Shown here: positions 25,225-45,564 of the stretch, piece by piece
How the letters are laid out: every line of letters starts with the position of its first letter
Numbering within the stretch: the first letter of the stretch is position 1
NCBI GenBank assembly: GCA_964416505.1
Contig: CAYQEJ010000003.1
Span: forward strand, 54,034-118,033
From: an uncultured Gammaproteobacteria bacterium
GTDB taxonomy: Bacteria > Patescibacteriota > Microgenomatia > Levybacterales > UBA12049
Length of the DNA: 64,000 nucleotides
Direction of reading: 5' to 3'
Made by a program: the position numbers and the translations under genes
The notes under the pieces: model-generated
Told to the model about the DNA's origin: nothing
Seen by the model: only the letters and a program-made list of their open reading frames with translations
The model's database searches: none

Positions 25225-25262
25225 TTAACAATATTTAAGCACAATTGATTTAGTCTTACAAC

Positions 25263-25784
25263 CTAACACCCAGAAGGGAGTGGGTTAAATTGGGAATTTC
25301 TTGGAAAATCATTTGCAGCAAAGGCACCTAGATAAAACCTTACTGGTAAATTGCATAGTCCGTTTTTTGAAAAACCTTGATTAAGTAGATAATTTTCTGC
25401 TTCAGTTTTGGCTAGATCAATGTCTTTTGAATTAATTTCTATTTCGAAGTCATCTAGAGACTCAACGTATTGGATAATAAAATTTTCATTTTGAAAAATA
25501 ACTCCTGATTTGTTGTCTAACGGCGTTAAGATTTTGGCTTTTGCATCTAGGTCTGAAGGAGGAAGTGGCTGTCTAGTAGTTAGTTTTATTAAGGATTTTC
25601 CTAAGCTTCCAGGTTCATAGTTAACAACTGGCTTTGTGTATATTTGCTTCGAAGGGGTAGGTATTGGTTTTTGCGATGATCTTAAGTCGGAAAGAGTAGA
25701 TGCTATAGCAAGTAAAACAAATATTACTACTAAAATAACCGCAGAAATCAGATATATTATATTTTTTTTATTCTTTAAGTTCAT
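25263..25784 (-). CDS. Bitopic membrane protein (VirB8-like topology)
   Basis: N-terminal TM IIYLISAVILVVIFVLLAIA followed by an approximately 140-aa external domain. No sequence motif to confirm a VirB8 fold. Confidence 0.4.
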   Translation of the reverse strand: MNLKNKKNIIYLISAVILVVIFVLLAIASTLSDLRSSQKPIPTPSKQIYTKPVVNYEPGSLGKSLIKLTTRQPLPPSDLDAKAKILTPLDNKSGVIFQNENFIIQYVESLDDFEIEINSKDIDLAKTEAENYLLNQGFSKNGLCNLPVRFYLGAFAANDFPRNSQFNPLPSGC

Positions 25785-25785
25785 C

Positions 25786-28053
25786 TTACCTTATTGTATT
25801 ATATTCACCGTTTGTGCAAAGTTCAGGTGCGCCTCTGCAAACATTGGTTTCGCATTGCCAATAATCGAAATCTAAATTTCTTGGTTCAAGCACGATTTTT
25901 TCTCTGTCTACAGCTACTTGTATTTGTTCTTTCCACTCCACATTACCTCTATTGTAGGCAAGAGGATTGCGGTTGGAGCCCATTTGAAAAGCTCCCCAGG
26001 CTCCTTTGGGATCGGGTGTGCAAACGCTTCCATCGCTATTACATCTAAAATATGCATTGGGTCTATGGCCGCTTTCACATTCAGAAAGTAAGTACCAAAA
26101 TCTATAGTTTTTTGGATCTTTTGACTTAAGTTCATTCCCGAAATCGTTAAGTGTATAGTTGCAGCTTGGGTCTCCGAAATTTCCTTTAGGTGCGTTTACG
26201 GAATTATACTTTCCTGAGCAACTATCTCCAGTAGCAGGAGGTCCTCCGCCTCCAGTAGCGCCTAGAATAGAAATTGACACATCAAAAGTGCTATCGTCTT
26301 GGGGACGAAGAATTAAAGTAAAAGAATACATGGTTTGTTCGCCTGTTTCTGAAGGCGAATTATCCTTTAATCGCCAAGTGATTGCGCTTGAGTTTGTAGG
26401 AGATCTGTATATCCCCGTTGTGCCGCTCGGAATCAAAGTAGTCTCTTCAGGAATATCTGCGCTTACTGAAATATTTTCGATAGGGTCTACTGCATTTCTT
26501 TTATCGTAAATAACGATTATTTCATATCTCAAATCAACGCCATTGGGAGAAGATTGCGGGCCATAAATTGTATAGCTTATTCCTGCATAGCGGCTATTTG
26601 TGATTGGTTTTGTTAGATCTGAAGTGTTAAAGAAGATTTGGCCTATTATCACAAATATAAAGATTATTAGAGCTATTATGATAACAGCTGGTAAGCTAAT
26701 GGTGGTAACCGTAATCCCAATTCCTGTAATAATTTTTGCTAATACTAGAGAAATAACGCTTATCGTGGCAGCGGCTGCACTTGTAGCCACGCCTATTATT
26801 GCAGAAATTGCTGTTGTTAAAAAACCTGCGATGGAAGATAAAAGTGAGCCAAGTATTGATCTTGCAAACAGTCTTTCTAAATATCCAATTGGATCTAAGA
26901 ATTTTTTTAATTTAAAAAACTTTTTGTTTAGGTTCTTAAATCTATTAATTGATTTAGATTTAGACAGACGGTTACCTAGTCTTGTTTTGAAAAATCTTTT
27001 GTATAGCCAGTTTTGATTTTGAGTTGATTGTTGCGATTGGGATTTGCTTTGGTTGGTAGTTTGAGGAGCGTTAGCGAAATTATTTTGCAATACTGGGAGG
27101 GAGGCAGGAATAGGAGAAGTTAATGGCTGTGGTTTCGTAATCTGTGTTGGGGAAGGTTTGTTTCTTCTAAGTAAACGGGATGTGATCCCAGGATTTTGAT
27201 AGGTATATGTTATGTCTTTCTGCCTTTTCCTTTCGATAGCTGATGTTAGCTCTGGGTCATTGTATTGTGCTGCCCATTTTTTTGCATTTTGTGGAGAATA
27301 TGTGACCAGATGTTCTTCAATTTCTTCCTGCGCATTGGAAATTGCTCGTGATCGATCTAAATATCTAGCGCTTGGATCTCTACTATCATAATCTTTTGCT
27401 GTTTTTTCGATATATCTTCGTCTAGTTTCTAGATAATCAGAGTAAGTAAGATTTTTGTTTTCTAGGCTTACTTTCTCAAAAGCCAAGTCGAGTTGGGTAT
27501 TTTGAGGGTCTTTGGAAAGCCATTCGCGTGCCTTTTTAGGATCGGCTCTAACTAATAATTCATGGTATTCCCGTCGTGCTCTTTCATATGCCTCCAGTCT
27601 GCTTTTTGCAACAGGAGCATTTCTTTTTGAGGGATTTTGATTATATCTCCTGTATTCTTCCTCCCACTTTTTTGCAAAATACTCAGCATATCTATCTGCT
27701 TCTTTTTGAGATTCTTCATATGACCCCCCGCGTCTTAAAAGGTTAACACCTGCGATAATAGATCCTAAAGCTAAGCTCTGTGGATTTCTGGGGCTGGAGT
27801 TTTTATCTTTATCTTTTGACTCAATTTCTATATTTGCTCCCTGCGATCGTTGAGTATTTATGTCTTCAATGCCTTGCCAAATTCCTTGAGTATTTAAAAT
27901 CTGATTTTCAAATAAAATTTTTTCAAATGATTGCCTATTTCCAGCTCTAAAAGCATTAAATAATTGATTTTGGTCGAATCTGGATAAATTTCCAAGTTGT
28001 GAGGCTGCCCACTTAGCATTTTCTAGGCTTAATTGTTTCTCGTTTTCATCCAT
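25786..28053 (-). CDS. Polytopic membrane protein with a C-terminal Rpf/transglycosylase-like (lysozyme-fold) domain; VirB1-analogous peptidoglycan hydrolase fused to a channel-like membrane core
   Basis: 755 aa. About 390 aa of cytoplasmic Q/S/R-rich N-terminus, then at least 3 TM helices (residues about 395-470). The Cys-rich external C-terminus ends with LLSECESGHRPNAYFRCN...KGAWGAFQMGSNRNPLAY...WKEQIQVAVD...WQC, matching the CESG...G.FQ...EQI.VA...W..C pattern of Rpf-type transglycosylase domains. Confidence 0.5.
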   Translation of the reverse strand: MDENEKQLSLENAKWAASQLGNLSRFDQNQLFNAFRAGNRQSFEKILFENQILNTQGIWQGIEDINTQRSQGANIEIESKDKDKNSSPRNPQSLALGSIIAGVNLLRRGGSYEESQKEADRYAEYFAKKWEEEYRRYNQNPSKRNAPVAKSRLEAYERARREYHELLVRADPKKAREWLSKDPQNTQLDLAFEKVSLENKNLTYSDYLETRRRYIEKTAKDYDSRDPSARYLDRSRAISNAQEEIEEHLVTYSPQNAKKWAAQYNDPELTSAIERKRQKDITYTYQNPGITSRLLRRNKPSPTQITKPQPLTSPIPASLPVLQNNFANAPQTTNQSKSQSQQSTQNQNWLYKRFFKTRLGNRLSKSKSINRFKNLNKKFFKLKKFLDPIGYLERLFARSILGSLLSSIAGFLTTAISAIIGVATSAAAATISVISLVLAKIITGIGITVTTISLPAVIIIALIIFIFVIIGQIFFNTSDLTKPITNSRYAGISYTIYGPQSSPNGVDLRYEIIVIYDKRNAVDPIENISVSADIPEETTLIPSGTTGIYRSPTNSSAITWRLKDNSPSETGEQTMYSFTLILRPQDDSTFDVSISILGATGGGGPPATGDSCSGKYNSVNAPKGNFGDPSCNYTLNDFGNELKSKDPKNYRFWYLLSECESGHRPNAYFRCNSDGSVCTPDPKGAWGAFQMGSNRNPLAYNRGNVEWKEQIQVAVDREKIVLEPRNLDFDYWQCETNVCRGAPELCTNGEYNTIR

Positions 28054-28055
28054 AT

Positions 28056-29999
28056 TTACTTATTTTGGTCAAAATCAGAGAAGCCAGGTGCAATTTGCGG
28101 CGTCTGCGGAGGAACAAAACCTGATTGATTCATGGGACTAATGGGCGCTGGGTTTTGGTAGGGTGCTGAAAAAGAAGTCTCATTCATTATTCTTTGCTCC
28201 TCCTGTCTTCTTAAAAGTTCTTCTGGATTTGAAGTAATAATCTTGTGTTCAAACGGAGCAGATATCACTTTCATGGAAACATGACTTTGTCCTGCAAAAA
28301 ATAAACCCTCTCCGACGTTTGCTGATAAAAGTAGTTGTTTTTCCTGCTGTGTTAAATAGAAAATTTGAGACACTAAATCTATCTCAGTAGGGCTTTGTTT
28401 TAAAAGCATCTGAATGGACGAGTTTGAAAGAATTGCCTTTCCATAATCGGTGGAGAGAAAGTCCTGAACATCCTGGGTAGCTGTTGTTAGTGCAAGATAA
28501 TATTTCCTAGCTCTTTTAGCTATTCCATGGATGAAAGAGGCAGAGTCTTGGTATTTCATAAGGTACCAGGCCTCATCAAGCACTAATAGTCTTTTTTTAA
28601 GATCTTTTCTAACTCTCGTCCAAATGAAATCAAGAATTATATGCATAGCCACGGGGCGAAGCTGATCTTCGAGTCCTCTAGTTGAAAATGCAGTGAATGG
28701 ATTTTTTATATCAAAGTTTGATTGTTGGTTAAAAATTCCAGCCATGCTTCCTTTTATAAATTTCTCAAGCCTTAGTGCTAGGTTTTTAGAAATTTCATCC
28801 TCGTTTCCCAAGAGAACTTTATATAGATCTTCCATGAGAGGAGGCTTCTTTGTTTGTGTAGATGGGTCTGGTGTAATTCCTTTTTGCCTGTAAACTTCTA
28901 CTAATGCTCGATCAAGAATTGCGTCATGCGCTGCATCAAGTTCTCCCATAACGATTCTAAGAAGAGCATGGAGCGAAAGGATTTTTAATCCTAATTCATT
29001 TTCTCCTTGTTCATAGATACCAGATAAGTCGAATGGATTAATCTTGATAGGAGAGGCGGGGGTGAACTCAATATATTCTCCGCCGAGGGTTCTCGTGAGT
29101 TCCCCATATTCTCCTTCAGGATCAATTACTATGATTTCAGCGCCAAACATAAACTGTCGCATAAGCTCCAGCTTGATAAGGTAAGATTTTCCTGCTCCAG
29201 ATTTTCCGAAAACCACTTCGTTTGCATTTTCTAGAGAGTATCTGTCAAAAATGATTAATGAATCATTTAGCTTATTTAGTCCATACATTACTCCTTTATC
29301 TTGGGTGAGAGTGGCAGATGTAAACGGAAACGTTGAAGCGAGGGAAGTGGTGTCCATGTTTCTGGTCAAGAATAATTGATCGTCTGCAATTGGAATGCTT
29401 GATTTAAAACCAGCATCCATTTGAAGGGTTGCGGGTTTAGCTAGGACAAGAATTGAAGCCAGAAGTGTTTTGAGTCTTTTTGATGCCTCTTCAAGGTCCT
29501 CTTTTGTATCAGATATTAATGTAATGTAAAGGCTAAATTGAAAAAATCTTTCTATTCCCTTTGCGAGTTCTTCCTGTACCGAAAGTGCGTCTTCTAGAGA
29601 AGCTTGGACGGTAGGATCTAAGACTTTATTATTCTGTGTTTGTTCCATAAGGGTTGCTTCCATTTCGCCAATTTTTCTTCTTAGATCTTGGAGGGCATCT
29701 GGTGAAGATGTGGGATAGCAGAACATAGAAAGATTTAGTGAATGTTCAAAATCAATAAGAGGTTCAAGCCAATTAGGTGAAACAAATCTGGGGTATCCCA
29801 CAACGAAAAAAGTTTTGTGATATTTTTCTCCAATTCTAATATGCCCAAAATCAACTTCGATAGAAGAAGGGGCTATGATATCCGTAACAGAATTCATGCC
29901 TCTTTCGATTCTTTTTATTCCCTCATTTGCAGGGTGAATCGCTGCGCCAGGAATAGGATTAGTTTTTAAGCTTTGATCTTTTTTGTTAAATAGTTTCAT
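28056..29999 (-). CDS. VirB4/TrbE/CagE-family type IV secretion ATPase
   Basis: 647 aa, no N-terminal TM. N-terminal CagE_TrbE_VirB-type region (IAPSSIEVDFGHIRIGEKYHKTFFVVGYPRFVSPNWLEPL). Walker A VFGKSGAGKSYL, Walker B LLVLDEAWYLM, and C-terminal LTTATQDVQDF, typical of VirB4. Confidence 0.75.
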   Translation of the reverse strand: MKLFNKKDQSLKTNPIPGAAIHPANEGIKRIERGMNSVTDIIAPSSIEVDFGHIRIGEKYHKTFFVVGYPRFVSPNWLEPLIDFEHSLNLSMFCYPTSSPDALQDLRRKIGEMEATLMEQTQNNKVLDPTVQASLEDALSVQEELAKGIERFFQFSLYITLISDTKEDLEEASKRLKTLLASILVLAKPATLQMDAGFKSSIPIADDQLFLTRNMDTTSLASTFPFTSATLTQDKGVMYGLNKLNDSLIIFDRYSLENANEVVFGKSGAGKSYLIKLELMRQFMFGAEIIVIDPEGEYGELTRTLGGEYIEFTPASPIKINPFDLSGIYEQGENELGLKILSLHALLRIVMGELDAAHDAILDRALVEVYRQKGITPDPSTQTKKPPLMEDLYKVLLGNEDEISKNLALRLEKFIKGSMAGIFNQQSNFDIKNPFTAFSTRGLEDQLRPVAMHIILDFIWTRVRKDLKKRLLVLDEAWYLMKYQDSASFIHGIAKRARKYYLALTTATQDVQDFLSTDYGKAILSNSSIQMLLKQSPTEIDLVSQIFYLTQQEKQLLLSANVGEGLFFAGQSHVSMKVISAPFEHKIITSNPEELLRRQEEQRIMNETSFSAPYQNPAPISPMNQSGFVPPQTPQIAPGFSDFDQNK

Positions 30000-30643
30000 A
30001 TTTTCATTTTTCCAGTAACCATGGGAGTTATGATATCTTTGGATACTCCCGAGCTGCTTTCGTTGTTATAGATCTCATAAAAAAGCCTAATTAGTTCGTC
30101 TTTTTCCAAAATTTTTGATTTCAAACCGGATCTTAAAAGCTCTTGGATTATAGATGAAGATTTGGAAGTTAATAAATTTTTTGCATCTCTTATTATCGCA
30201 TCTCTGTCTCTTGAGTTTGCAATTCCTCCAGCTCCTTTTTCAAGATACGAGTACGAAATGGAGATATAAAATTTTTTATCAAGAACTGTATTTTTTTGAA
30301 CAAGTTGAGAAACGAATTCTTTATACATTCTAATGTGTTCTGAGAATGTTGGGTTAGATGCTTTCGCAGCTTGTTCCTCGAGTAGTTTTTGATAATTACT
30401 GATATCGAGTTTTCTGCTCAAAATTACTATTTGAATAGGAAAAGATAGGGAGTTGATGAGCGAAGCATAAGAGAGAATTTTTATTTCTTGTTCTTCTTTG
30501 GATTGTAATGCAAAATTTGTCGCTGTAACTTCTATAACCATACACACACTTCCTCCGGACATAAGAACTAGGCTGTCTATAATGTCCTCAATCTCTATAA
30601 ACTTTTGTGTTGTCGCTATGGTTTTTGGGGCAGAGTTTTTCAT
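29996..30643 (-). CDS. Hypothetical cytoplasmic protein (215 aa) translationally coupled between the VirB3-like and VirB4-like genes
   Basis: No TM or signal. Overlaps the VirB4-like start by 4 nt and abuts the upstream gene. No recognisable family. Confidence 0.45.
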   Translation of the reverse strand: MKNSAPKTIATTQKFIEIEDIIDSLVLMSGGSVCMVIEVTATNFALQSKEEQEIKILSYASLINSLSFPIQIVILSRKLDISNYQKLLEEQAAKASNPTFSEHIRMYKEFVSQLVQKNTVLDKKFYISISYSYLEKGAGGIANSRDRDAIIRDAKNLLTSKSSSIIQELLRSGLKSKILEKDELIRLFYEIYNNESSSGVSKDIITPMVTGKMKI

Positions 30644-31942
30644 TTAATTAAATAATTCCCTTCTTAATTCTTCCCTGGGATCTACTGAAAAAATTTCAAG
30701 CGGCATAATTGGTGTTCCGTTCGCTTCAATTTCCACGGTGTCAAACTTATTTTGTCCTTTTGGATCTTCAATAGAAACTATGTATTTCCCGTTTTGAAGA
30801 GAAGTTGCCGATGCAAATTGCCCAAGCCCATTTGTTTTAAAAGCTCTCACTGGATTGTCTTCTGGATCTTTTACCTCGACTAGAATATTTGGTAGGGGAT
30901 TCCCTCTAGGATCTTTAATGATCCCAGTTATTAGATTTGGATCTGCGGGAGCTGTGGGGAGGCCAACGCTTTTTACTAATGCAGGAGGGGCTTTTCTAAC
31001 TCTTTGGGTCTGGGGAAGAGGTTGTGCCGTAATTGGATTAAATTTCGTTTTTTCTGTTCCTTCAAGTCTAGCCTTAAGAGATAATAATTCTTTCTCAAGC
31101 GCCTCCTTTTGTCTGTTTGCTTCGATAAGCATTTTCTCAAGTTCTTCTGATTTTTGATGAGTAGTTGAGTCTGTTTGAGGAGTTGAGTTATTTTCTATAG
31201 CTTTTGCTTCAACAAGCTCTTTCTGAAGTGCGGAAACTTGTTCTTCGAGTTTTCTTTCATTTTCTTCTATTTTTTCTTCCTCCTCTTTTTCTTTGATTTT
31301 TTCAAGATCATCAAGATTCCCAGACATAATAGGTTTATTGTTGGGATCATTTAATTCGATTACTCTGCCTGGGACCTGAGTTATAGGAGTGTTTATTTGT
31401 GGTGCGCTCTGTGGCTGCGGAGCAGGAACAGGTTGAATGATTTGGGCTTGTGTTTGGATCGGGGTTTGTTGGATAGGTTGTTGATAGTTGATGGGGGTTG
31501 GTGTTTGTATCTGTGTTTGTGTTTGTAAAGGCATATTGGTAGGTGGTAGTGGAGCAGGTGTGTTAAGTTGAGGAGGAGTTGATTGGAGTACAGGATTTAA
31601 TGGTGTTTGTGGGGCACTAGGATTCATTTGTGAGAGATTTCCACCAGTTTTTCTATAGATATATTGGGTAGGGGAGAAAAGAGCTCTAATGAAATTTCCA
31701 ATCATGGTATCCATAGGTCTTCCGTCAATAGGAACAAACGCTAATGCAACACCAAGAGAGAGAAATAATACTGCTAAGGGGAGTCTAATCAGTATAAATA
31801 TCGGTAAGATAAAAAATATAAACCAGGCAATTACTGTTCCACCGGCAAGGTAGGCAAACTGCTTTACGGTCATGTTGCCAATAAGTTTAAATTGAAATCC
31901 TGTAATGTCTTGTGGTATTGGATGGTTTTCCATAGGCAGCAA
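30644..31942 (-). CDS. PrgI/VirB3-like two-TM N-domain, followed by a P/Q/T-rich linker, a coiled coil and a C-terminal beta-sandwich (carboxypeptidase-regulatory-like) domain
   Basis: The N-terminal 100 aa are MLPMENHPIPQDITGFQFKLIGNMTVKQFAYLAGGTVIAWFIFFILPIFILIRLPLAVLFLSLGVALAFVPIDGRPMDT, a hydrophobic hairpin as in PrgI/VirB3-family proteins that precede VirB4. The C-terminus IKDPRGNPLPNILVEVKDPEDNPVRAFKTNGLGQFASATSLQNGKYIVSIE is Big/CarbopepD_reg-like. Confidence 0.45.
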   Translation of the reverse strand: MLPMENHPIPQDITGFQFKLIGNMTVKQFAYLAGGTVIAWFIFFILPIFILIRLPLAVLFLSLGVALAFVPIDGRPMDTMIGNFIRALFSPTQYIYRKTGGNLSQMNPSAPQTPLNPVLQSTPPQLNTPAPLPPTNMPLQTQTQIQTPTPINYQQPIQQTPIQTQAQIIQPVPAPQPQSAPQINTPITQVPGRVIELNDPNNKPIMSGNLDDLEKIKEKEEEEKIEENERKLEEQVSALQKELVEAKAIENNSTPQTDSTTHQKSEELEKMLIEANRQKEALEKELLSLKARLEGTEKTKFNPITAQPLPQTQRVRKAPPALVKSVGLPTAPADPNLITGIIKDPRGNPLPNILVEVKDPEDNPVRAFKTNGLGQFASATSLQNGKYIVSIEDPKGQNKFDTVEIEANGTPIMPLEIFSVDPREELRRELFN

Positions 31943-32070
31943 AATAAATACAAATAAGAGCTCTTTGCTTCATACTAGAATATAACGTGAAAAATAGCGT
32001 TTCAAGGCTATCAAAATGAATCAATTTTTGAGGATTTTGAAGCTAATTGTGAAAACAACTTTTTAGACAC

Positions 32071-32700
32071 TTAATTTTGACAAGTGTAGATTATATCTCC
32101 CGCATGATTAAGCTTTTTGCATGTTCTGTTAAGAGCACAGTATCCATGAGGATGCGCTTCGCTGCAAGGAAATTGGCATGTGTAGTGACTACCTGTATCG
32201 TTTGGCACGCAGATTCTACCCGTAGGGCATATTCCGTCCGGATGTTGATTGTTGCATCTATAAGCGACGCTATCGGGAACACATTGATCAAATCCAAATG
32301 TTGAAATGCAGGCGTTTACTCCAGTTAGTCTTATTATGAAAGGTAATATTATTACTGATAATAAAATTAAGGTTAATCCCAAAATAGAAAAAGTAAGTGT
32401 TTTTTTGGCCCCATCTGCTTTTTTTGCATCACCTCCAGAGCTAACAAATTTAAATCCGGAAATTATAATCATGGCTACTGCGACAATTCCTGCGAAAATA
32501 AACACCCAGTAAATTACGTTTCCTAGGATAATTGGTAGGCAGTTAAGCGTTGCTACCTGGTTCGATCCGCCAGTTAGACATCCAGATCCTCCAAGAGGGG
32601 TAAAATTTGCAGCAAAAACATTTGGGGTGAAAAAAAGAAATCCAGAAATTAACAAAAAGAAAAATAAAAACTTTTTCACTGATAAATAAAAGCGTAACAA
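32071..32700 (-). CDS. VirB2/TrbC-like pilin paralog 1 with a Cys-rich C-terminal extension
   Basis: Signal peptide, hydrophobic helix, loop SGFKFVSSGGDAKKADGAKK, second hydrophobic helix, then a 75-aa tail containing 11 Cys. Confidence 0.5.
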   Translation of the reverse strand: MLRFYLSVKKFLFFFLLISGFLFFTPNVFAANFTPLGGSGCLTGGSNQVATLNCLPIILGNVIYWVFIFAGIVAVAMIIISGFKFVSSGGDAKKADGAKKTLTFSILGLTLILLSVIILPFIIRLTGVNACISTFGFDQCVPDSVAYRCNNQHPDGICPTGRICVPNDTGSHYTCQFPCSEAHPHGYCALNRTCKKLNHAGDIIYTCQN

Positions 32701-32721
32701 AGAAGATGTTAAATTACAAGA

Positions 32722-33141
32722 TTAACGAGGAGCTACTAGTGTAGGGAGAGTGAAGCTGCTGTTAAGTAGGCTTCCGATTCCGAAGAATTGTAATGCGAGG
32801 TTGATGATGAAGTAGGAAAGAAATACTAGTACTAATCCTACCAGTGCAGCTACGATCATTCCTCTTGCAGCATCTACTTTTCCTTTATCTCCACCTGATG
32901 TAATCCATTTAATTCCACCATATACTAGAAAACCTAAAGCTAGCAATACAGCCACTATAAATAATAGAAGAATTATTGAAGAAACTAGTGGGCCAATTCC
33001 TGCGTTACCCATATTGCAAAGAGTTGTAAATCTTCCGCCTACGCAGAGATCAAGTGTACCGCCACCTACAGCAGCAAAAGTTTTAGGGGTAAACGTTAAG
33101 AAAGAAGCGATCGATAACGATAGAGCAGTTAATTTTTTCAT
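32722..33141 (-). CDS. VirB2/TrbC-like pilin paralog 2
   Basis: Signal peptide ...TFA|AVGGG, TM1, loop WITSGGDKGKVDAARGMIVAA, and TM2. This is the classic conjugative-pilin topology. Confidence 0.55.
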   Translation of the reverse strand: MKKLTALSLSIASFLTFTPKTFAAVGGGTLDLCVGGRFTTLCNMGNAGIGPLVSSIILLLFIVAVLLALGFLVYGGIKWITSGGDKGKVDAARGMIVAALVGLVLVFLSYFIINLALQFFGIGSLLNSSFTLPTLVAPR

Positions 33142-33195
33142 TACTTATTTGATCGTATTGTGTTTTTAATTGTTTGTCAAGTACCTTTTCTGAAT

Positions 33196-33513
33196 CTAGA
33201 CTATTTGTCCAATTCCTAAAAACCAACCTAAAACATTTATTATCAAAAAAGAGGAAAGAGCAACTAGAAGTCCTATAACTGCATATGTAATTTTTTTTCT
33301 TGCAGCGTCTACTTTTCCTTTATCTCCACCTGATGTAATCCACTCAATGCCTCCCCAGACAAGAAAAGCGAGTGAGGCGAGTGTTATTAATACAAAAGCC
33401 CAGGTAAGACCATTTGTAATTACGTTTTTAAGAGTATTGAGGCCGCCTGTGGGCATCCCTGCGACAGGTTCTATAGAATATGAGCCGGGTAAGTTAAATG
33501 CAATTTTTTCCAT
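33196..33513 (-). CDS. VirB2/TrbC-like pilin paralog 3
   Basis: Shares the near-identical loop WITSGGDKGKVDAARKKITYAVIG with paralog 2, and has two flanking hydrophobic helices. Confidence 0.55.
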   Translation of the reverse strand: MEKIAFNLPGSYSIEPVAGMPTGGLNTLKNVITNGLTWAFVLITLASLAFLVWGGIEWITSGGDKGKVDAARKKITYAVIGLLVALSSFLIINVLGWFLGIGQIV

Positions 33514-34517
33514 TATCTCCCAAATCCTGGTAATCCTAGAATATCACGAGTTATTAATTCAAGTATAACTAAAGAAAATATAATAAATATAAATCCTACT
33601 ATTGCTGCCGTAAGCTGTTCTCTGGCATTTTTTACCTTATCAGGATCACCTTGGGATGTCATAAGTTTGTATCCGGCGACCAAGATTATTATGAATATTA
33701 TTCCGCCTCCAATACTTAAAACAAATCCAAGTGCCCATCTGGTAAAGTCAGTTGCTCCAGTGCTAACCATTCCAAATGCTGTTCTGACTCTTAAACATCC
33801 GCGCGCGTCATTATAGAAATTTCCATTTTTTTCGCAAGGTAAAGATAGAGGAGCATTCTTGGCATAATTTATGACTGAAGGATCATACAGGCTTCCGGCT
33901 ACGCATGTGCCTGTTCTACAGTCTCCTGTGGTAAGCGAATTGCAATAAAAACCCTCAGAGCACGTTCCCCTTACTCTCCCTCCTTTAGAACAGATTTTAT
34001 AATCGTTTGATGTTGGATCTATTTCGCAAGAATTATTTTGTCCTGGGCCCGTGGGTTCAGGGGAAGGATTTTGACCACCAGCCGTCCTAACTACTATGCC
34101 ATTGCTTCTGCAGGATGGTTGACAAGTGCCGTCTTCTTTGTAAACGCAGAGTCTAACCGTATATGTGCCAGCGCCTAAATTTCTTAGATCTCCTAGGGTA
34201 TGATCAGTCTCGCTAAATGTAACACCTGAATCTGGGTTTATAAGAATATCTTCAGATACGCATCCTTCTTGAAATTTTCCAGCTTTTGTTAATGAATCAA
34301 GAGGGCATGGGCCAGTATTTGAAGTATTAAATGCTACATAAAGACGTGTTCCTGCATCGCGGATATTGGTGAACGTAATGCTTTTAAATTTTCCTACTTG
34401 AAGTTGAGTGGGATCAGTCGTAAAAGTACAAGCATCATCTGGCCCGGCATATGCAATGGTAGTTTTTAGAGCGAAAAAAGCAATGAAAATTAACAAGGGA
34501 AAAATTATTTTCCTCAT
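33513..34517 (-). CDS. Secreted Cys-rich domain protein with a C-terminal VirB2/TrbC-like pilin module (paralog 4)
   Basis: Signal peptide, then an approximately 230-aa Cys-rich extracellular domain, then a pilin-like TM1-loop-TM2 with a degenerate MTSQGDPDKVKNAREQLTAAIVGF loop. Stop and start overlap with paralog 3. Confidence 0.5.
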   Translation of the reverse strand: MRKIIFPLLIFIAFFALKTTIAYAGPDDACTFTTDPTQLQVGKFKSITFTNIRDAGTRLYVAFNTSNTGPCPLDSLTKAGKFQEGCVSEDILINPDSGVTFSETDHTLGDLRNLGAGTYTVRLCVYKEDGTCQPSCRSNGIVVRTAGGQNPSPEPTGPGQNNSCEIDPTSNDYKICSKGGRVRGTCSEGFYCNSLTTGDCRTGTCVAGSLYDPSVINYAKNAPLSLPCEKNGNFYNDARGCLRVRTAFGMVSTGATDFTRWALGFVLSIGGGIIFIIILVAGYKLMTSQGDPDKVKNAREQLTAAIVGFIFIIFSLVILELITRDILGLPGFGR

Positions 34518-34552
34518 AATTTTATCGTAGGCAAAACTAGAATTAATTGCAA

Positions 34553-35875
34553 CTATGGAGTGAATTTGAATCCGCGGCCTTTAACTGTTTGGATATGTGT
34601 TGGGGAAGAAATGTCTTTTTCAATTTTCTTTCTTAGTCTAAAAATAAGTTGATCTAAAGCTTGCTCTGTAACCCCGGCAGTAGAGGATAAATCGCCCCAA
34701 ACTGAGGATATGATTTCGTCTCTTTCAACTATTTTTTCAGGATTTAAAATAAAAAATTTAAGTAATTTAAACTCTGAAGAAGTAAGTCCTTCAGACAAAA
34801 CTATTTCGCCAATTCTAATTTCCTTAGCCGCTTCATCAAATATTATCTTTTCTTGTTTTTCGGAAATTTCTTTTTTAGCAAATTCTTCCAAGAGAGGAAC
34901 TGCAAATTTATTATTTTTAATAAGTCCTACAGCCACTAAATGAGATGATTCAGAAGCTTTTTTATTTGCGATTAGACTTTGTTCGTATGGAGAGAGAGAA
35001 TTCCAGATTTCGTAAAGAACTGATTTTACTTTAGAATTATTTTCTAAAAATTCTCTGACATCATCTTTTTTATCATTTAAGATACAGGCTTCAATGCTAA
35101 CAAGCCATAATTTACCTAATTCTCCTGTTAATTCACTAATCTTTTCAAGCGTTTTTTTATCCACATTTTTTCCACTATTTTTCTTTAGATAATCAAGTCT
35201 AAATTGTTGAATTTTTTCATCTCCTAGAGATAGGTAAACTAAATTTCCTGTTAAAAATTCATAAAAGGAAGTAATTATTTCATTTCCTGCGGTTTCTTCT
35301 AATGGCCGAGAAAGAGGAAATATGCAGGAAAAACGATATTTTGCTCTATCTCTCAATACTCTTAAGTTATCAAAGAAGATAGGCTCAAGTACTCCAACGT
35401 ATTCTTCGAATCTATCAAAAAGTAGAACTATAGTTAATTCTTTTTCAAGACATAAATAGTCAATCGTTTTTTTTAGACCCTGGAAGATCACAAGTTCATC
35501 GCCTGATTTTAGACTCTCATCAAATATTTTTTTAAGAGCTTTATGCTCTTCGTTCATTTTTCTCTCCGCTAGAGAATCCAAGATTTCCAAAAACATATAC
35601 TTTGTAGATTCGGAAAGTGGCCTTTTTTTAATTTCTGCAAAATTCATCATTACGAAATGAAACCACTTTGTGTTTTCTTTAAGGTGAAGTTCGCGAGCTT
35701 TTGAATTGTATGCGAGAATTCTTAAGATGTTTGATCTTCCAACTCCTGGAAGAGAAATTACCTGAGCAGAATTTCCAACTCTTACAAAAGAAAGAATTTT
35801 CTCTATCTCAGAATATCTTGCGTCTTCAGGGTAAAGTGATTCGAAGTGTTTTGGTTCCATAGCTAGGTAAAACAA
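34553..35875 (-). CDS. Transcriptional regulator: N-terminal STAND/AAA-like ATPase domain, C-terminal OmpR/PhoB-type winged helix (Trans_reg_C)
   Basis: P-loop-like VISLPGVGRSNILRIL. The C-terminus ERDEIISSVWGDLSSTAGVTEQALDQLIFRLRKKIEKD....IQTVKGRGFKF matches the Trans_reg_C/CadC wHTH consensus. The domain order is the reverse of SARP/AfsR regulators. Confidence 0.55.
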   Translation of the reverse strand: MFYLAMEPKHFESLYPEDARYSEIEKILSFVRVGNSAQVISLPGVGRSNILRILAYNSKARELHLKENTKWFHFVMMNFAEIKKRPLSESTKYMFLEILDSLAERKMNEEHKALKKIFDESLKSGDELVIFQGLKKTIDYLCLEKELTIVLLFDRFEEYVGVLEPIFFDNLRVLRDRAKYRFSCIFPLSRPLEETAGNEIITSFYEFLTGNLVYLSLGDEKIQQFRLDYLKKNSGKNVDKKTLEKISELTGELGKLWLVSIEACILNDKKDDVREFLENNSKVKSVLYEIWNSLSPYEQSLIANKKASESSHLVAVGLIKNNKFAVPLLEEFAKKEISEKQEKIIFDEAAKEIRIGEIVLSEGLTSSEFKLLKFFILNPEKIVERDEIISSVWGDLSSTAGVTEQALDQLIFRLRKKIEKDISSPTHIQTVKGRGFKFTP

Positions 35876-41262: not shown

Positions 41263-41337
41263 TAATTTAAGTTTGATCCATTTTCACTTTTATGTCAAGT
41301 TGGCTTCAAGCTCAAAAGCTGGTAAAATATATAGAGT

Positions 41338-41424
41338 GGAGAGGTCGCATAGTGGACTAGTGCGGCTGTCTTGAAAACAGCTGTGGGTGCAAGCCTACCG
41401 CGAGTTCGAATCTCGCCCTCTCCG
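41338..41424 (+). tRNA. tRNA-Ser (anticodon TGA), class II with a long variable arm
   Basis: GGAGAGG acceptor pairs with CCTCTCC. Anticodon stem-loop GCTGT-cTTGAAaa-ACAGC. 22-nt variable arm, T-arm GAGTTCGAATCTC. 87 nt; CCA not encoded. Confidence 0.85.
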
Positions 41425-41425
41425 C

Positions 41426-43864
41426 TTATCTCTGTCTAGGGTTTGAGTTTATCCCCCCGCTCACTTGACCCGTAGTGCTTCGTATAGAATTTACTAAAAA
41501 TGAAAGTCCAATTGCGCTTAGGAAGTTTGTTAATCCTTCTTTTCTTTTTTTTCTTTTGATGATTTCATGCTCTATTCTATATGCTTCATAAGCCATTTGC
41601 GCTAAGGTAATCTCCTCAGCGTTCCCTTTAGTCACTGTTTCTTCTAGTCTTTTTTTTGCTGCTTTTAATGCTTCATTTGCGTCTGATTCCATTTCTTCAA
41701 GCTCAGTAGAAAATTCTCTATTTCTTGCTTTTGCTCGAATCTCTGCGCTTTCAAAGGCTTTTTTGTATGCCTCATCGCGCTTTTTAATTGCGTTTGCTAA
41801 TTCTTCATCGGTCATTTTTCTTGGTTTACCATCTCTTTGGGCAGCTTGTTCCAGGAAAATTTCCATATTTAATCTTAATAAAGCTTCTTTTACTTCAGCT
41901 TCTGCTAATCTCCTTTCCAATATCTTTCTGTCCTCAACGCTTAAGGCTCCTTTCATTTCAGCAATTCTTAGTTCTTCCCGTGCTTCATCTACGAGCGTAA
42001 ATACTTTTCTTTCGGGTGCCGCTTGATTATGTTCATCATCGGTATCTGGGAGTTGTTCATCTGTTTCTAATATTTCTTCAGCTTCATCTCTAGGATCAAT
42101 TATTTGATCCACTGGTTGAGATGATGGCTCCATGGCTGTCTCGGTGGCTCCTTCAAGACCTTGTGCAGCTGAAATCATATCGCTAAGTCCCTGATTTGCT
42201 TCAGATGCTTTTATGAATTTTACATTTGGGAATGCCTCTTGAAGTCTTGGAATGGCATCATAATAAGCCTCGTGTACGATTACTCCAGCTATTCCGCCAT
42301 CTTTTAAAGATTGGCCTGGTTTTCCTAGTACAATAAAGCTTCCGTTATCTTTAACGCTTATTGCTGCAGCATTTGGTTTTGAATCAAGATTGGCTGTAAA
42401 GAAACTGGCTTCTTGATCTATGCCATTTGTTAGAAGGTTATTAAGACTTACTAAATCCTGCGTGGTTCCCTTTGCAATCCCATGTGCATCAAATTGAGAA
42501 GCGAGTTCAGGAGGGATTGATCTTCTGGTATCAACTAGCATATAAGGGTCATATGGGAATTCTTCGCCATCAACTAATTCATTTGGATGTTCTTCGATGA
42601 ATCTCTGTGCTTTTCCTGCCATTGCTTGAACTTCATCGGAAGACAATCCAGTTCGATTCGCTTCTGCTGTAGTGGGTGCTGGAACAGATTCTGGCGCTGT
42701 AGCTGAAGTTGCATCTCTTTTTGCTTTTCTTGCGATTGCTTCAGAGAGGCCATGATGTCCTTTTTCGGCATATGCTTTGGATTTTTCAGGATACCGCGCT
42801 AGATATGCATCCCATCCATTCATTTCTTCAATATCTCGTGCAGCTTGAGCTTTCTCTCTCCTACTTGAAGGATCAGCGCTTTGAACTTCAGGGTGTGCAT
42901 TTGCTTTTTCTATAATTTGTGCTTGAAACCTGGTAAGTTCTGGATCTAAATCTGGGTGGTCATAGATATGATCTGGTCCGATGGTTTCCAATCTTGGTGG
43001 ACCAGCGGTAAATCCTTCGGGGAGATTTACGTTTCCTGCTGATTGTGGGGATGTCTCTGGCAAATTTGATGGGTTTATCATTTCCCCGAGACCTTCTGTC
43101 ATTTGATCTGCTCTAATAAATTTTACTCCTGGGTATGCTTCTTGAAGCCTTGGAATAGCATCGTAAAAAGCTTCATTTACTAAAACTGCTGCTATTTCAC
43201 CTCTGGGGTTTTCTGGCGTTTCAATCTTGCCGTCGGGTTTACTAAGGATGATAAAATTTCCCGTATCATATGCTAGGCCACCCATTGCAGATGCAACTTG
43301 AGCTTCAATTTCTGGTGGAACTTTTAATGGTACAGTATGGAAATCACGAGCCTGGTCAATACCGGTAGTTAAAAAAGTATTTAAAGCCGCAAGTTGGTCT
43401 TTGTATCCTCCCTTTGCAATTCCATGCGCATCAAATCTTTGACCTATCTCAACAGGAAGTTGACCTCTCACTCCTACCATGAGATCATCTTGTTCATATT
43501 TAATTTCCTGAATAAATCCAGTTGATTCTGGTATTGGATGATCTCTTATGAAAACAGCAGCATTAGTTCCTAATTCTTGTATTTCTTGGGGGGAAAGGCC
43601 AGTTCTTGTTACTTCCTGACTTGTTAAGCCTGCTGCGTCAGCTAAGCCTGCGTCTATTCTTGGCGGATTTGCTGTTAGATCTGCTTCAATCGCTCCCGCC
43701 AATGCTGTGTTAGCTGCAACCTGCGCAGCATCTGGTGCTTTGGGTGCAGTGGGAGCAGCAGGTGCCCTTACTGCTTCTGCTGGCCGTGGTGCTCCATCTG
43801 GCATTCCTGGTGTTGTAGTCATACGTTCTATCATAAGTCTAGATTTATAAGCTAAGTTTGTCAA
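41426..43864 (-). CDS. Large hypothetical protein (812 aa) with an internal tandem duplication of an approximately 330-aa module, a C-terminal coiled coil and a C-terminal TM anchor
   Basis: Repeated blocks: QFDAHGIAKGGYKDQLAALNTFLTTGIDQ / QFDAHGIAKGTTQDLVSLNNLLTNGIDQ, and FYDAIPRLQEAYPGVKFIRADQMTEGLGEMI / YYDAIPRLQEAFPNVKFIKASEANQGLSDMI. GC-richer than surrounding genes. The stop is 2 nt from the tRNA-Ser 3' end. Confidence 0.55.
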   Translation of the reverse strand: MTNLAYKSRLMIERMTTTPGMPDGAPRPAEAVRAPAAPTAPKAPDAAQVAANTALAGAIEADLTANPPRIDAGLADAAGLTSQEVTRTGLSPQEIQELGTNAAVFIRDHPIPESTGFIQEIKYEQDDLMVGVRGQLPVEIGQRFDAHGIAKGGYKDQLAALNTFLTTGIDQARDFHTVPLKVPPEIEAQVASAMGGLAYDTGNFIILSKPDGKIETPENPRGEIAAVLVNEAFYDAIPRLQEAYPGVKFIRADQMTEGLGEMINPSNLPETSPQSAGNVNLPEGFTAGPPRLETIGPDHIYDHPDLDPELTRFQAQIIEKANAHPEVQSADPSSRREKAQAARDIEEMNGWDAYLARYPEKSKAYAEKGHHGLSEAIARKAKRDATSATAPESVPAPTTAEANRTGLSSDEVQAMAGKAQRFIEEHPNELVDGEEFPYDPYMLVDTRRSIPPELASQFDAHGIAKGTTQDLVSLNNLLTNGIDQEASFFTANLDSKPNAAAISVKDNGSFIVLGKPGQSLKDGGIAGVIVHEAYYDAIPRLQEAFPNVKFIKASEANQGLSDMISAAQGLEGATETAMEPSSQPVDQIIDPRDEAEEILETDEQLPDTDDEHNQAAPERKVFTLVDEAREELRIAEMKGALSVEDRKILERRLAEAEVKEALLRLNMEIFLEQAAQRDGKPRKMTDEELANAIKKRDEAYKKAFESAEIRAKARNREFSTELEEMESDANEALKAAKKRLEETVTKGNAEEITLAQMAYEAYRIEHEIIKRKKRKEGLTNFLSAIGLSFLVNSIRSTTGQVSGGINSNPRQR

Positions 43865-43943
43865 TTTTGCTTATAAACTAAGCGCATTATAGATTTGAGA
43901 CAGAAAACAAGCTTGATATTTACCTTATAAGAAATTTATAAAT

Positions 43944-44285
43944 TTATGCTTGAGGTGGAGCAGTGAGCGTCTTTGCGGTAGAAATTGCTTGTTCAATTTG
44001 TCCCTGCTTTATAAAATCTCTCATTGAGTTTAGGGTTTGATCTCTCTTTTCATCAGTTACTTTTTCCAGTTCTTCAAGATATACTTCATTTGCTTCTTTA
44101 TATTTTTCTCCCAAGCCTTTGAGCTTGGTTAGTAAATCTGCCTGATCTTTAATTGGAAGAGCTGCTAGAAAGTCACGAGCAAGTTGCTGTGCTTCTGGAG
44201 CATTAATTTTATTTTGCTTTAAATGTTCAACGATTAACTCTAATAGTTCTTTTTTAACTTTTTCAATTTCTTCTACCAAATTCAT
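43944..44285 (-). CDS. Small coiled-coil hypothetical protein
   Basis: 113 aa, highly charged helical protein, no family recognised. Confidence 0.45.
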   Translation of the reverse strand: MNLVEEIEKVKKELLELIVEHLKQNKINAPEAQQLARDFLAALPIKDQADLLTKLKGLGEKYKEANEVYLEELEKVTDEKRDQTLNSMRDFIKQGQIEQAISTAKTLTAPPQA

Positions 44286-44910: not shown

Positions 44911-44912
44911 AA

Positions 44913-45002: not shown

Positions 45003-45005
45003 GTG

Positions 45006-45559: not shown

Positions 45560-45564
45560 TTATG

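What the first reader, a model, noticed from the sequence alone, without database searches (positions are those of the whole stretch)
41426..43864. 812-aa protein built from a tandemly duplicated ~330-aa module, GC-rich, C-terminally membrane-anchored, abutting the tRNA-Ser 3' end
Two copies of a module share long identical stretches (QFDAHGIAKG..., (F/Y)YDAIPRLQEA(Y/F)P.VKFI(R/K)A, GIDQ...F). These are followed by a 150-aa charged coiled coil and a terminal TM helix. The gene's 3' end is 2 nt from the tRNA-Ser(TGA) 3' end, and tRNA 3' ends are classic insertion sites for acquired DNA.

The module may be a novel binding or enzymatic domain, for example surface display on the other cell or host.
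Basis: seen in the sequence. Interest (0 to 1): 0.55.

Follow-up and report, generated by a model that had tools for sequence, protein, structure and literature searches.

The report
Modular Patescibacteria protein with phage-type domain
This is a chromosomal gene of an ultrasmall (Patescibacteria) bacterium: a conserved head and tail carry two diverged copies of an uncatalogued, probably enzymatic domain also found in proteins that phages inject, so it is a candidate cargo of the neighbouring type IV secretion system, not a tRNA-inserted island.

Summary
The ORF and its internal repeat are real (aa 81-276 vs 398-577, 42% identity, E 1e-39). The repeated unit is about 190 aa, not 330. A different 120-aa module lies between the copies and is not repeated.

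The repeat is an uncatalogued alpha/beta domain with an almost invariant His in an "FDAHG" motif. It has no Pfam, NCBIfam, PHROG, PADLOC or PDB match. It has 361 relatives among 1.84 billion representatives. About 60% carry it at the extreme C-terminus. Others are giant phage or conjugative "polyvalent" proteins with portal, MuF, ART, 2H, Zeta or LPD domains.

About nine relatives share the N-terminal 70 aa and the C-terminal 200 aa but carry different central payloads.

The locus is syntenic in relatives, third-codon-position GC (GC3) is native, and no att-like repeat exists, so the tRNA-island idea fails. No signal peptide is present. The C-terminal hydrophobic helix is marginal, and a coiled coil is not shown.

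The gene lies beside a Patescibacteria type IV secretion (T4SS) cluster. In other lineages the domain sits next to T4SS pilin arrays or overlaps a coupling-protein gene.

Best reading, at moderate confidence: a payload-swapping candidate T4SS-associated effector.

The parts
41426..43864 (-). 812-codon ORF as listed from TTG. The likely true CDS is 41426..43834, starting at ATG M11 (about 802 aa).
43836..43864 (-). Promoter-like site TTGACA-17-TAGACT (10 of 12 matches), ending 2 nt before ATG 43834. The listed TTG start is its first base.
   Evidence: It is a consensus match only: the number of such sites in the region is not above the shuffle expectation.
43625..43834 (-). Conserved N-terminal 'chassis' segment (aa 11-80), rich in Ala, Pro and Gly, with no hydrophobic core. 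It is shared with P0001-P0003 and P0153-P0156.
   Evidence: jackhmmer E 1e-25 to 1e-35. DNA similarity to relatives stops at about 43629.
43037..43624 (-). FDAHG-domain copy 1 (aa 81-276). It keeps all family-conserved polar residues: D145, H147, K151, D170, R173, T177, N230.
42674..43036 (-). Inter-copy module (aa 277-397) with the motif W..Y...YPEKSKAYAEKG. It is a separate module, also present in P0007 (aa 399-511) and P0030 (aa 14-107), and weakly in P0155 and P0005.
42134..42673 (-). FDAHG-domain copy 2 (aa 398-577). It is the ortholog of the single module of P0001, P0002 and P0004. It keeps D459, H461, K465, D483 and T490, but has Ala at the conserved Arg (486) and His at the conserved Asn (531).
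42023..42133 (-). Acidic spacer (aa 578-614).
41540..42022 (-). Conserved C-terminal chassis (aa 615-775): a charged region nearly free of Pro and Gly, presumably helical. Heptad periodicity was not demonstrated.
41429..41539 (-). KRKKRK, then a marginally hydrophobic helix (aa 777-794), then a short polar tail ending in a basic ...PRQR. Homologs have the same layout (tails ending ...PQRH, ...SPRR, ...PRNR).
41338..41425 (+). tRNA-Ser(tga), convergent with the ORF. It is a conserved neighbour in all relatives, but its whole transcription unit is inverted in L003 and L004.
43944..44285 (-). 113-aa acidic (pI 5.1) protein encoded directly upstream and co-directional. It is conserved next to every ortholog seen, including the distant P0007 locus, and may be a partner or chaperone.
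24448..35875 (-). Context: a Patescibacteria-type T4SS cluster. It holds VirB4 (28056-29999), a TrsD-like gene (29996-30643), PrgI/VirB3 (30644-31942), T4SS_pilin genes (32071-34517) and a Trans_reg_C regulator (34553-35875). dnaN lies at 22913-24028.
   Evidence: paper PMC12102498
35940..41262 (.). Context: two conserved unannotated genes between the T4SS cluster and the target. One is 1237 aa on the plus strand. The other is 534 aa on the minus strand, with several long hydrophobic stretches (read by eye; TM segments and signal peptide not predicted with a tool). Both are syntenic in relatives.

Best explanation
The gene encodes a modular, payload-swapping protein of a Patescibacteria (Microgenomates/Levybacteria-like) bacterium.

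**Shown**
- A conserved chassis, made of the N-terminal ~70 aa and the C-terminal ~200 aa, frames a variable centre. The C-terminal part is a charged region followed by a weakly hydrophobic helix and a basic tail.
- In this genome the centre holds two diverged copies of a ~190-aa alpha/beta domain, called here the "FDAHG domain", separated by a third, unrelated module.
- The FDAHG domain is uncatalogued. It has a Rossmann/flavodoxin-like beta-alpha-beta core and a conserved polar set: Asp and a 99%-invariant His in the first core strand, a Gly-Ile-Asp...Arg...Thr loop, and an Asn at the end of a later strand.
- The same domain occurs in giant polyvalent proteins of phages and conjugative elements.
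- In Patescibacteria it occurs repeatedly beside T4SS genes.

**Inferred**
- The polar set probably forms a catalytic or ligand pocket at the C-terminal edge of the sheet.
- Polyvalent proteins are thought to enter the recipient cell together with the DNA.
- The protein is therefore a cargo, or a membrane-proximal accessory, of the adjacent Patescibacteria T4SS. The chassis would provide recognition or tethering. The small upstream 113-aa protein may be a partner.
- The FDAHG modules would act enzymatically on a target in the host cell on which the epibiont lives.
- Copy 1 is probably the active one. Copy 2 has lost two conserved residues and may be regulatory or differently specific.
For: **The domain is a real family**
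- The repeat has E 1e-39.
- A profile search finds 361 cluster representatives at E<=1e-3, and 199 at E<=1e-10.
- The AF2 model built on 55 sequences has pLDDT 89.5 and pTM 0.82.
- The His is conserved in 148 of 149 sequences. Asp, Gly, Asp, Arg, Thr/Ser and Asn/Asp are conserved at 74-99%.

**Effector-like deployment**
- Of 154 domain hits, 95 end within 15 aa of the protein C-terminus.
- The internal hits lie in proteins of 1000-5100 aa that also carry:
  - LPD3, LPD37 and LPD39;
  - Phage_portal with MuF;
  - Portal_Mu with a 2H phosphoesterase;
  - ADP-ribosyltransferase;
  - Zeta toxin;
  - LysM;
  - His_Phos_1.
- The only significant hit in the predicted viral structure library (BFVD) is a phage [quoted passage not shown] (E 7.5e-9).
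- In an IMG/VR phage contig the domain lies in a 1504-aa protein directly after an SLT lysin protein.
- Iyer et al. 2017 (PMC5512222) argue that such proteins are delivered with the DNA. They also note that solo domains of this kind occur near T4SS genes.

**Chassis with variable payload**
- Searches show the chassis relatives.
- DNA similarity to relatives breaks at aa ~79 and resumes at the tRNA.

**T4SS links**
- The window has the T4SS cluster about 6-19 kb away, in conserved synteny.
- In L011 the domain protein lies 1 kb from an array of six T4SS_pilin-like genes (five by Pfam, six by jackhmmer).
- In L016 the domain gene overlaps the 3' end of a VirD4-like coupling-protein gene, with a LysM-M23 hydrolase next door.
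- In L007 a coupling-protein-like gene lies 2 kb upstream.
- No substrate of the Patescibacteria T4SS is known (PMC12102498).
Against: - No translocation, toxicity or enzymatic data exist.
- T4SS adjacency is not general. Loci L012, L013, L019, L020 and L021 showed no detectable T4SS gene in the flanks held (at most 10 kb). Roughly 4 of about 10 independent long contexts are positive, a small sample with no formal background.
- If the C-terminal helix is a true tail anchor, the protein would stay in the producer's membrane facing its own cytoplasm. That fits an accessory role better than a cargo role.
- The payload is central, not C-terminal as in classical polymorphic toxins, and no variable immunity-like gene follows.
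- The chassis family is tiny (about 9 members), so generalisation is weak.
Confidence: 0.4

Rival explanations
1. The protein is a tail-anchored, cytoplasm-facing membrane protein that works inside the producer cell. It could be an accessory or regulatory enzyme of the T4SS or envelope. The chassis would be a membrane tether and the FDAHG modules would act on a self substrate.
For: - No signal peptide is present.
- KRKKRK precedes the only hydrophobic stretch, 19-35 aa from the C-terminus. The positive-inside rule then places the bulk of the protein in the cytoplasm.
- The locus is stably syntenic next to T4SS and membrane-protein genes.
- GC3 is native.
Against: - Hydrophobicity is marginal, and in most homologs Lys residues lie inside the stretch.
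- Payload swapping between close relatives, including a payload-less member, is unusual for a housekeeping accessory.
- Elsewhere the domain sits in phage and conjugative injected-type proteins and at free C-termini.
Confidence: 0.25
2. The gene is a domesticated fragment of phage or conjugative-element polyvalent weaponry. The bacterium would use it against incoming phages or mobile elements, or it would be a leftover of an old integrated element. It would have no link to the T4SS.
For: - Iyer et al. propose that chromosomal copies of polyvalent domains are captured from invasive elements and may target incoming parasites.
- The domain is present in phage proteins.
- Several Patescibacteria contexts are unrelated to the T4SS.
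- One context includes an integrase.
Against: - PADLOC gives no hit.
- No mobile-element genes, att repeats or compositional anomaly are found here.
- The locus is conserved across relatives that are only ~73% identical in DNA.
Confidence: 0.12
3. One reading: the protein is a surface-displayed binding module encoded on DNA acquired at the tRNA-Ser 3' end.
For: - The gene abuts the tRNA 3' end.
- Overall GC is raised.
- The central region varies between relatives.
Against: - No signal peptide is present.
- No direct repeat of the tRNA end exists.
- No integrase is found.
- GC3 is native.
- The gene is present at the same site in all relatives.
- The tRNA unit is inverted in some relatives, so the abutment is incidental.
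Confidence: 0.04

Closest known systems
Large polyvalent proteins of phages and conjugative elements and their 'LPD' domains (Iyer, Burroughs, Anand, de Souza & Aravind 2017, PMC5512222)
   Same: The FDAHG domain is found inside bona fide polyvalent proteins, together with LPD3/37/39, portal, MuF, ART, 2H and Zeta domains. The paper also describes solo versions of such domains near T4SS genes.
   Different: - This protein is chromosomal, syntenic and compositionally native.
- It carries two copies of one domain rather than many disparate ones.
- It has its own conserved N- and C-terminal chassis.
- The domain matches none of the LPD models present in Pfam.
- Whether it equals one of the LPDs that never entered Pfam could not be checked.
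Polymorphic toxin / effector systems (Zhang et al. 2012, PMC3482391, listed; compared from general knowledge)
   Same: Conserved trafficking or framework parts carry recombination-swapped payload domains among close relatives. The payload domain is usually at protein C-termini across the wider family.
   Different: - Here the payload is central, between a conserved head and tail.
- No adjacent variable immunity gene is present; the downstream neighbours are a tRNA and a conserved 534-aa membrane protein.
- No known trafficking domain (LXG, RHS, WXG, MuF) is present in this protein.
T4SS substrates with C-terminal recognition regions, such as Xanthomonas/Stenotrophomonas X-Tfe toxins with XVIPCD and VirB/D4 substrates with positively charged tails (general knowledge; PMC11253643 and PMC6759196 listed)
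   Same: An enzymatic N-terminal or central part is joined to a conserved C-terminal ~200-aa region whose tail ends in basic residues. The gene is encoded near T4SS or coupling-protein genes.
   Different: The C-terminal region shows no sequence similarity to XVIPCD, BID or any Pfam family. The host system is the monoderm-type Patescibacteria T4SS, whose substrates are unknown.
Flavodoxin-like / Rossmannoid alpha/beta folds (REC domain, methylglyoxal synthase; weakly Tpt1/KptA and DarT)
   Same: The topology is beta-alpha-beta three-layer, with conserved residues at strand C-termini.

Membership tests
Genomic island integrated at a tRNA gene | Direct repeat of the tRNA 3' end (attL/attR) bounding the insert | tested here: not met
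   The repeat finder on 41200-47000 shows only inverted matches, and these are other tRNA-Ser genes. No direct copy exists.
Genomic island integrated at a tRNA gene | Integrase or mobility genes inside the insert, and absence of the insert in relatives | tested here: not met
   The segment holds only the 812-, 113- and 196-aa genes, none with an integrase hit. The same genes lie at the same site in L001-L004.
Genomic island integrated at a tRNA gene | Atypical composition or codon usage | tested here: not met
   GC3 is 0.234 against a window mean of 0.247 (sd 0.027). The raised GC is confined to codon positions 1-2.
Large polyvalent proteins (Iyer et al. 2017) | Contains a domain that belongs to the polyvalent-protein domain network | tested here: met
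   The same domain lies in proteins carrying LPD3/37/39, portal, MuF, ART, 2H and Zeta domains. The BFVD hit has E 7.5e-9.
Large polyvalent proteins (Iyer et al. 2017) | Several domains of disparate biochemical activity in one polypeptide | tested here: not met
   The protein has two copies of one domain plus one uncharacterised module. No other catalytic domain is detected.
Large polyvalent proteins (Iyer et al. 2017) | Encoded by a phage, plasmid or conjugative element | tested here: not met
   The locus is chromosomal, syntenic and compositionally native, and has no relaxase, integrase or virion genes.
Polymorphic toxin system | Variable toxin domain at the extreme C-terminus, followed by a cognate immunity gene | tested here: not met
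   The variable part is central and the C-terminus is conserved. The downstream neighbours are a tRNA and a conserved 534-aa gene.
Polymorphic toxin system | Payload replaced between close relatives on a conserved framework | tested here: met
   Relatives with the same chassis carry one module, two modules, a different domain, a linker-like domain or no payload.
T4SS substrate / effector | Genomic association with T4SS or coupling-protein genes | tested here: inconclusive
   Positive in the window family, L011, L016/L017 and L007. Negative in L012, L013, L019, L020 and L021. The sample is small and no formal background was computed.
T4SS substrate / effector | T4SS- and T4CP-dependent translocation into a target cell | not testable with these tools
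   This needs an experiment.
Tail-anchored membrane protein | Single C-terminal TM helix of sufficient hydrophobicity, no signal peptide | tested here: inconclusive
   No N-terminal hydrophobic segment is present. The C-terminal stretch has a 19-residue Kyte-Doolittle mean of 1.13 (1.1-1.6 in homologs), at or below the usual ~1.6 threshold, with Lys inside the stretch in most homologs.
Coiled-coil protein | Heptad (3.5-residue) hydrophobic periodicity | tested here: not met
   The Fourier power at period 3.5 for aa 621-775 is not above shuffles (p 0.54). Sub-windows reach p ~0.1. This is a crude test and no dedicated predictor was available.
Any catalogued protein family (Pfam-A, NCBIfam, PHROGs, PADLOC, PDB sequences) | Significant profile match | tested here: not met
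   Searches give no match at or near the curated thresholds.

The most novel reading that the evidence does not exclude
The chassis family would be the first recognisable substrate family of the Patescibacteria T4SS. Its conserved C-terminal ~200 aa would be the translocation or coupling-protein recognition region. Its interchangeable central payloads, including the FDAHG domain shared with phage-injected polyvalent proteins, would be enzymes delivered into the host bacterium on which the epibiont depends. The FDAHG domain would then be a new enzyme class used in common by phages, conjugative elements and ultrasmall epibionts to manipulate recipient cells.
Probability: 0.25. Interest if true: 0.75.

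Novelty: new variant of a known kind. Interest (0 to 1): 0.45.

Why it matters
Patescibacteria (CPR) make up a large share of bacterial diversity and live attached to host cells. Their T4SS genes are essential for epibiotic growth in the one system tested, as cited in PMC12102498. No relaxase is associated with most of these clusters, and nothing is known about what the machine moves.

A protein family next to T4SS genes that carries a domain otherwise seen in phage and conjugative injected proteins gives a concrete, testable cargo candidate.

Separately, the FDAHG domain is a well-populated family: 361 clusters at 50% identity. It models confidently, has an enzyme-like conserved site, and is absent from Pfam, NCBIfam and PHROGs. 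Defining it would annotate hundreds of "hypothetical" proteins, including parts of giant phage proteins.

Tried and rejected
- Self-BLASTP of the whole protein returned only the diagonal. Splitting the protein was needed to see the repeat.
- The AF2 model from a 4-sequence alignment was poor (pLDDT 56). It was replaced by a 55-sequence run.
- The afdb50 library was unavailable.
- tblastn of three versions of the domain against cultured phage genomes and PLSDB plasmids found no match.
- The genome-contig scan found only the MAG already known. Alignment A3 was too diverse for pattern search.
- A profile search with the chassis C-terminus returned only a 99%-identical fragment, because the word prefilter was swamped. 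The size of the chassis family is therefore a lower bound.
- The weak Pfam hit T3SS_basalb_I (E 0.021, below cut-off) was rejected as a chance match to a charged helix.
- DNA_Packaging_2 for the 113-aa protein (E 5e-4, below cut-off) was not accepted.
- No conserved immunity-like neighbour was found across loci.
Full report
**1. What is in the sequence**

The window is AT-rich (35.5% GC). It carries a Patescibacteria-type T4SS cluster at 24448-35875, next to dnaN at 22913-24028:
- VirB4 at 28056-29999;
- a TrsD-like N-terminal VirB4 fragment at 29996-30643;
- PrgI/VirB3 at 30644-31942;
- several PF18895 T4SS pilins at 32071-34517;
- a Trans_reg_C regulator at 34553-35875.

This is the arrangement described for Patescibacteria, including the position close to dnaA and dnaN (PMC12102498).

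Two conserved unannotated genes follow: 1237 aa and a 534-aa protein with several long hydrophobic stretches (read by eye; no TM prediction was run). After them come tRNA-Ser(tga) at 41338-41425 (+) and the target ORF at 41426-43864 (-). The stop codon begins at the base after the tRNA 3' end.

A homolog of the protein's framework is annotated from "Candidatus Levybacteria", which belongs to the Patescibacteria group, Microgenomates.

**2. The repeat**

BLASTP of the two halves aligns aa 81-276 with aa 398-577: 42% identity, E 1e-39. Only 88 nt (77%) and 28 nt (93%) of DNA similarity remain. The repeat is therefore real and old.

The unit is about 190 aa, not 330. The segment between the copies (aa 277-397) is a separate module. 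It has its own relatives: P0007 aa 399-511, P0030 aa 14-107, and weakly P0155 and P0005. It is not repeated after copy 2. An HMM of the domain finds only these two copies in all six frames of the window.

**3.

- GC. The gene's GC of 0.415 is the second highest among 46 ORFs. GC3 (0.234) is ordinary, so the excess reflects amino-acid composition.
- Start codon. The TTG start is the first base of a TTGACA-17-TAGACT site. Most homologs begin at MIE(S/H)MS, so the start is probably M11.
- Coiled coil. The region is charged and nearly free of Pro and Gly, but lacks significant heptad periodicity in a simple Fourier test.
- TM helix. The terminal hydrophobic stretch is only marginally hydrophobic, and in most homologs it is interrupted by Lys.
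- Signal peptide. No N-terminal hydrophobic segment is present.

**4. Not an island at the tRNA**

Three relatives of the protein were found among 5.8 billion sequences, and a second search added four more.

The relatives' loci are collinear with the window on both sides. The order is LTD protein, NUDIX, a 188-196-aa protein, a 113-aa protein, the gene, tRNA-Ser(tga), the 534-aa protein, the 1237-aa protein, the regulator, then the pilins. DNA identity is about 73%.

No direct repeat of the tRNA end exists; the only matches are other tRNA-Ser genes in inverted orientation. No integrase is present.

In L003 and L004 the whole tRNA transcription unit (promoter-like site plus tRNA) is inverted relative to the same flanks. 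There the gene faces the tRNA 5' side, 47-69 nt away. The 3'-to-3' abutment is therefore lineage-specific.

**5. A chassis with swappable payload**

DNA similarity between the window and its relatives runs through the first ~79 codons. It then collapses until the tRNA, apart from module-to-module matches.

At protein level, aa 11-80 and aa 615-812 are shared by P0001-P0004 and P0153-P0156. The centre differs:

| Member | Central payload |
|---|---|
| P0001, P0002, P0004 | one FDAHG module |
| window protein | two FDAHG modules plus a linker module |
| P0003, P0153 | an unrelated beta-rich domain |
| P0154, P0155 | a linker-like domain |
| P0156 | none |

Copy 2 groups with the single module of P0001, P0002 and P0004 (48-59% identity). 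Copy 1 is as distant from copy 2 (43%) as from modules of unrelated proteins (41-45%). Copy 1 also keeps the long loop typical of the wider family.

The last ~30 aa of the P0001 module match copy 1, while the body matches copy 2. This indicates recombination among modules.

P0007 is a more distant positional ortholog, preceded by NUDIX and a 111-aa gene. It has the order FDAHG, linker module, helical region, hydrophobic end. The "copy 1 + linker" pair may therefore be a unit.

**6. The domain**

The domain has no match in Pfam, PHROGs, NCBIfam, PADLOC or PDB sequences, whether searched with single sequences or profiles.

An exhaustive profile search of 1.84 billion representatives finds 361 proteins at E<=1e-3, 199 at E<=1e-10 and 28 at E<=1e-30.

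With 55 sequences AF2 gives pLDDT 89.5 and pTM 0.82. The model has two parts:
- an N-terminal helix and hairpin extension;
- a ~120-aa beta-alpha-beta core.

Conserved polar positions, in 812-aa numbering for copy 2, are D459, H461 (148/149), G462, K465, G481, D483, R486, T490, N531 and P546. H461 lies in the first core strand and N531 directly after a later strand. This is the usual site of pockets in such folds, but that is an inference from topology: the coordinates could not be inspected.

Copy 1 retains the whole set (D145, H147, K151, D170, R173, T177, N230). Copy 2 has Ala at position 486 and His at position 531.

Structural neighbours are uninformative:
- Foldseek against the PDB finds nothing at E<1.

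**7. Where else the domain occurs**

Of 154 domain instances, 95 end within 15 aa of the C-terminus of proteins with unrelated N-terminal parts. Another 37 lie well inside their protein (more than 100 aa from its C-terminus), most of them in proteins of about 900-5100 aa.

The large proteins are polyvalent proteins in the sense of Iyer et al. 2017:

| Protein | Other domains |
|---|---|
| P0120 | LPD3, LPD37, LPD39 |
| P0066 | Phage_portal, MuF |
| P0079 | Portal_Mu, 2H phosphoesterase |
| P0091 | ADP-ribosyltransferase, 2H phosphoesterase |
| P0092 | ADP-ribosyltransferase |
| P0057 | 2H phosphoesterase, Zeta toxin |
| P0054 | LysM |
| P0082 | His_Phos_1 |

The sole significant hit in the predicted viral structure library (BFVD) is a phage [quoted passage not shown] (E 7.5e-9). 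In an IMG/VR contig the domain lies in a 1504-aa protein just after an SLT lysin protein. No cultured phage or plasmid carries it.

Iyer et al. argue that such proteins enter the recipient with the DNA. They also note that solo versions of their uncharacterised domains occur near phage structural or T4SS genes.

**8. Patescibacteria contexts of the domain**

Contexts with T4SS-related genes:
- The window family.
- L011: the 509-aa protein P0033 lies 1 kb from six T4SS_pilin-like genes.
- L016/L017: a 280-aa FDAHG protein overlaps the 3' end of an 872-aa VirD4-like coupling-protein gene (TrwB_AAD_bind, T4SS-DNA_transf, TraG-D_C). A LysM-M23 hydrolase lies next door.
- L007, from a "Patescibacteria group bacterium": a coupling-protein-like gene lies 2 kb upstream, with an integrase between. 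L007 and L016 may be related genomes (they share FtsH - coupling-protein - gene synteny), so they may not count as independent contexts.

Five other long contexts (L012, L013, L019, L020, L021) show housekeeping or unrelated neighbours. The association is suggestive but not general.

**9. Interpretation**

The best-supported reading is a chromosomal, payload-swapping protein whose payload is an effector-type, probably enzymatic domain shared with injected proteins of phages and conjugative elements. It is functionally tied to the adjacent T4SS, either as cargo or as a membrane-proximal accessory.

Shown:
- the repeat;
- the domain family and its fold class;
- its conserved residues;
- its architectures;
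- the chassis with variable payload;
- the synteny;
- the absence of island features.

Inferred:
- catalysis;
- delivery by the T4SS;
- the roles of the chassis ends and of the 113-aa partner.

The main rival is a tail-anchored, cytoplasm-facing protein that acts in the producer cell.

**10. Novelty and score**

The concept of solo polyvalent-type domains near T4SS genes is published. The following were not found in any of the libraries or papers searched here:
- this domain, which is uncatalogued;
- its strong presence in Patescibacteria;
- the head-and-tail chassis with interchangeable centres;
- the two-copy architecture, unique to the window protein among the chassis relatives (one other listed hit, the 5103-aa P0104, also has two domain instances).

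I rate it a new variant of a known kind, with interest 0.45. It becomes more interesting if the T4SS-cargo reading holds, because the substrates of the Patescibacteria T4SS are unknown.

Noticed in passing
window 41300-41425; L003 2430-2553; L004 2780-2900: The whole tRNA-Ser(tga) transcription unit is inverted in two relatives, between otherwise collinear flanks. The unit is the promoter-like TTGGCT-17-TAAAAT plus the 88-nt tRNA, which is 100% identical in L003. The orientation co-varies with the C-terminal allele type of the neighbouring gene (...GPQRH/...PRQR versus ...EG..RR).
   Followed up: partly
window 41325-41425 and 44915-45015: A 101-nt inverted repeat (76% complementary) is formed by tRNA-Ser(tga) and tRNA-Ser(gga). 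It brackets the 3.5-kb segment holding the 812-aa, 113-aa and 196-aa genes and could be a substrate for inversion. Four tRNA-Ser isoacceptor genes and one tRNA-Arg gene lie within 41338-46839.
   Followed up: partly
window 43836-43864 (-): The ORF finder's TTG start is the first base of a TTGACA-17-TAGACT promoter-like site that ends 2 nt before ATG 43834. This suggests a very short leader or a leaderless mRNA, and a true start at M11 or M15.
   Followed up: partly
window 43944-44285 (-): A 113-aa acidic protein with no family match is conserved directly upstream of every ortholog seen, including the distant P0007 locus (L006). It may be a partner or chaperone.
   Followed up: partly
window 35940-41262: Two large conserved genes without any Pfam or NCBIfam match lie between the T4SS pilin array and the target, and are syntenic in relatives. 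One is 1237 aa. The other is 534 aa and, read by eye, has an N-terminal hydrophobic segment and several more long hydrophobic stretches; Pro-containing stretches are frequent in it. They could be divergent T4SS components such as VirB6, which is reported as hard to detect in Microgenomatia.
   Followed up: no
window 29996-30643 (-): A 215-aa protein matches the N-terminal part of a VirB4 model (NF045975, E 1e-10). It is TrsD-like and lies directly upstream of VirB4, as described for Patescibacteria.
   Followed up: partly
L016 6940-10384 (also L017): The VirD4-like coupling-protein gene overlaps by about 10 nt the start of a 280-aa gene ending in the FDAHG domain. A LysM-Peptidase_M23 gene lies on the other side. 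This is the tightest T4SS link seen for the domain.
   Followed up: partly
L005 / L002 (GCA_964561915.1, contig CAZLQR010000025.1): The MAG is titled "uncultured Gammaproteobacteria bacterium". Its gene content (PF18895 pilin arrays) and its collinearity with the window point to Patescibacteria/Microgenomates, as does the Levybacteria homolog. The taxonomic label is probably wrong.
   Followed up: partly
[not shown]
   Followed up: partly
window 49052-49441 (-): A tmRNA gene (Rfam RF00023, 76.9 bits). A tmRNA also lies in the syntenic region of L001.
   Followed up: no
window 45693-46670 (-): A lamin-tail-domain (LTD) protein with a signal-peptide-like N-terminus and a long Pro/Ser/Thr-rich C-terminal half. 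It is conserved in relatives and is probably a cell-surface protein.
   Followed up: no
P0162 (JGI, 1056-bp contig): A 141-aa fragment is 99% identical to the C-terminus of the window protein. The same or a nearly identical organism therefore occurs in a JGI metagenome.
   Followed up: no
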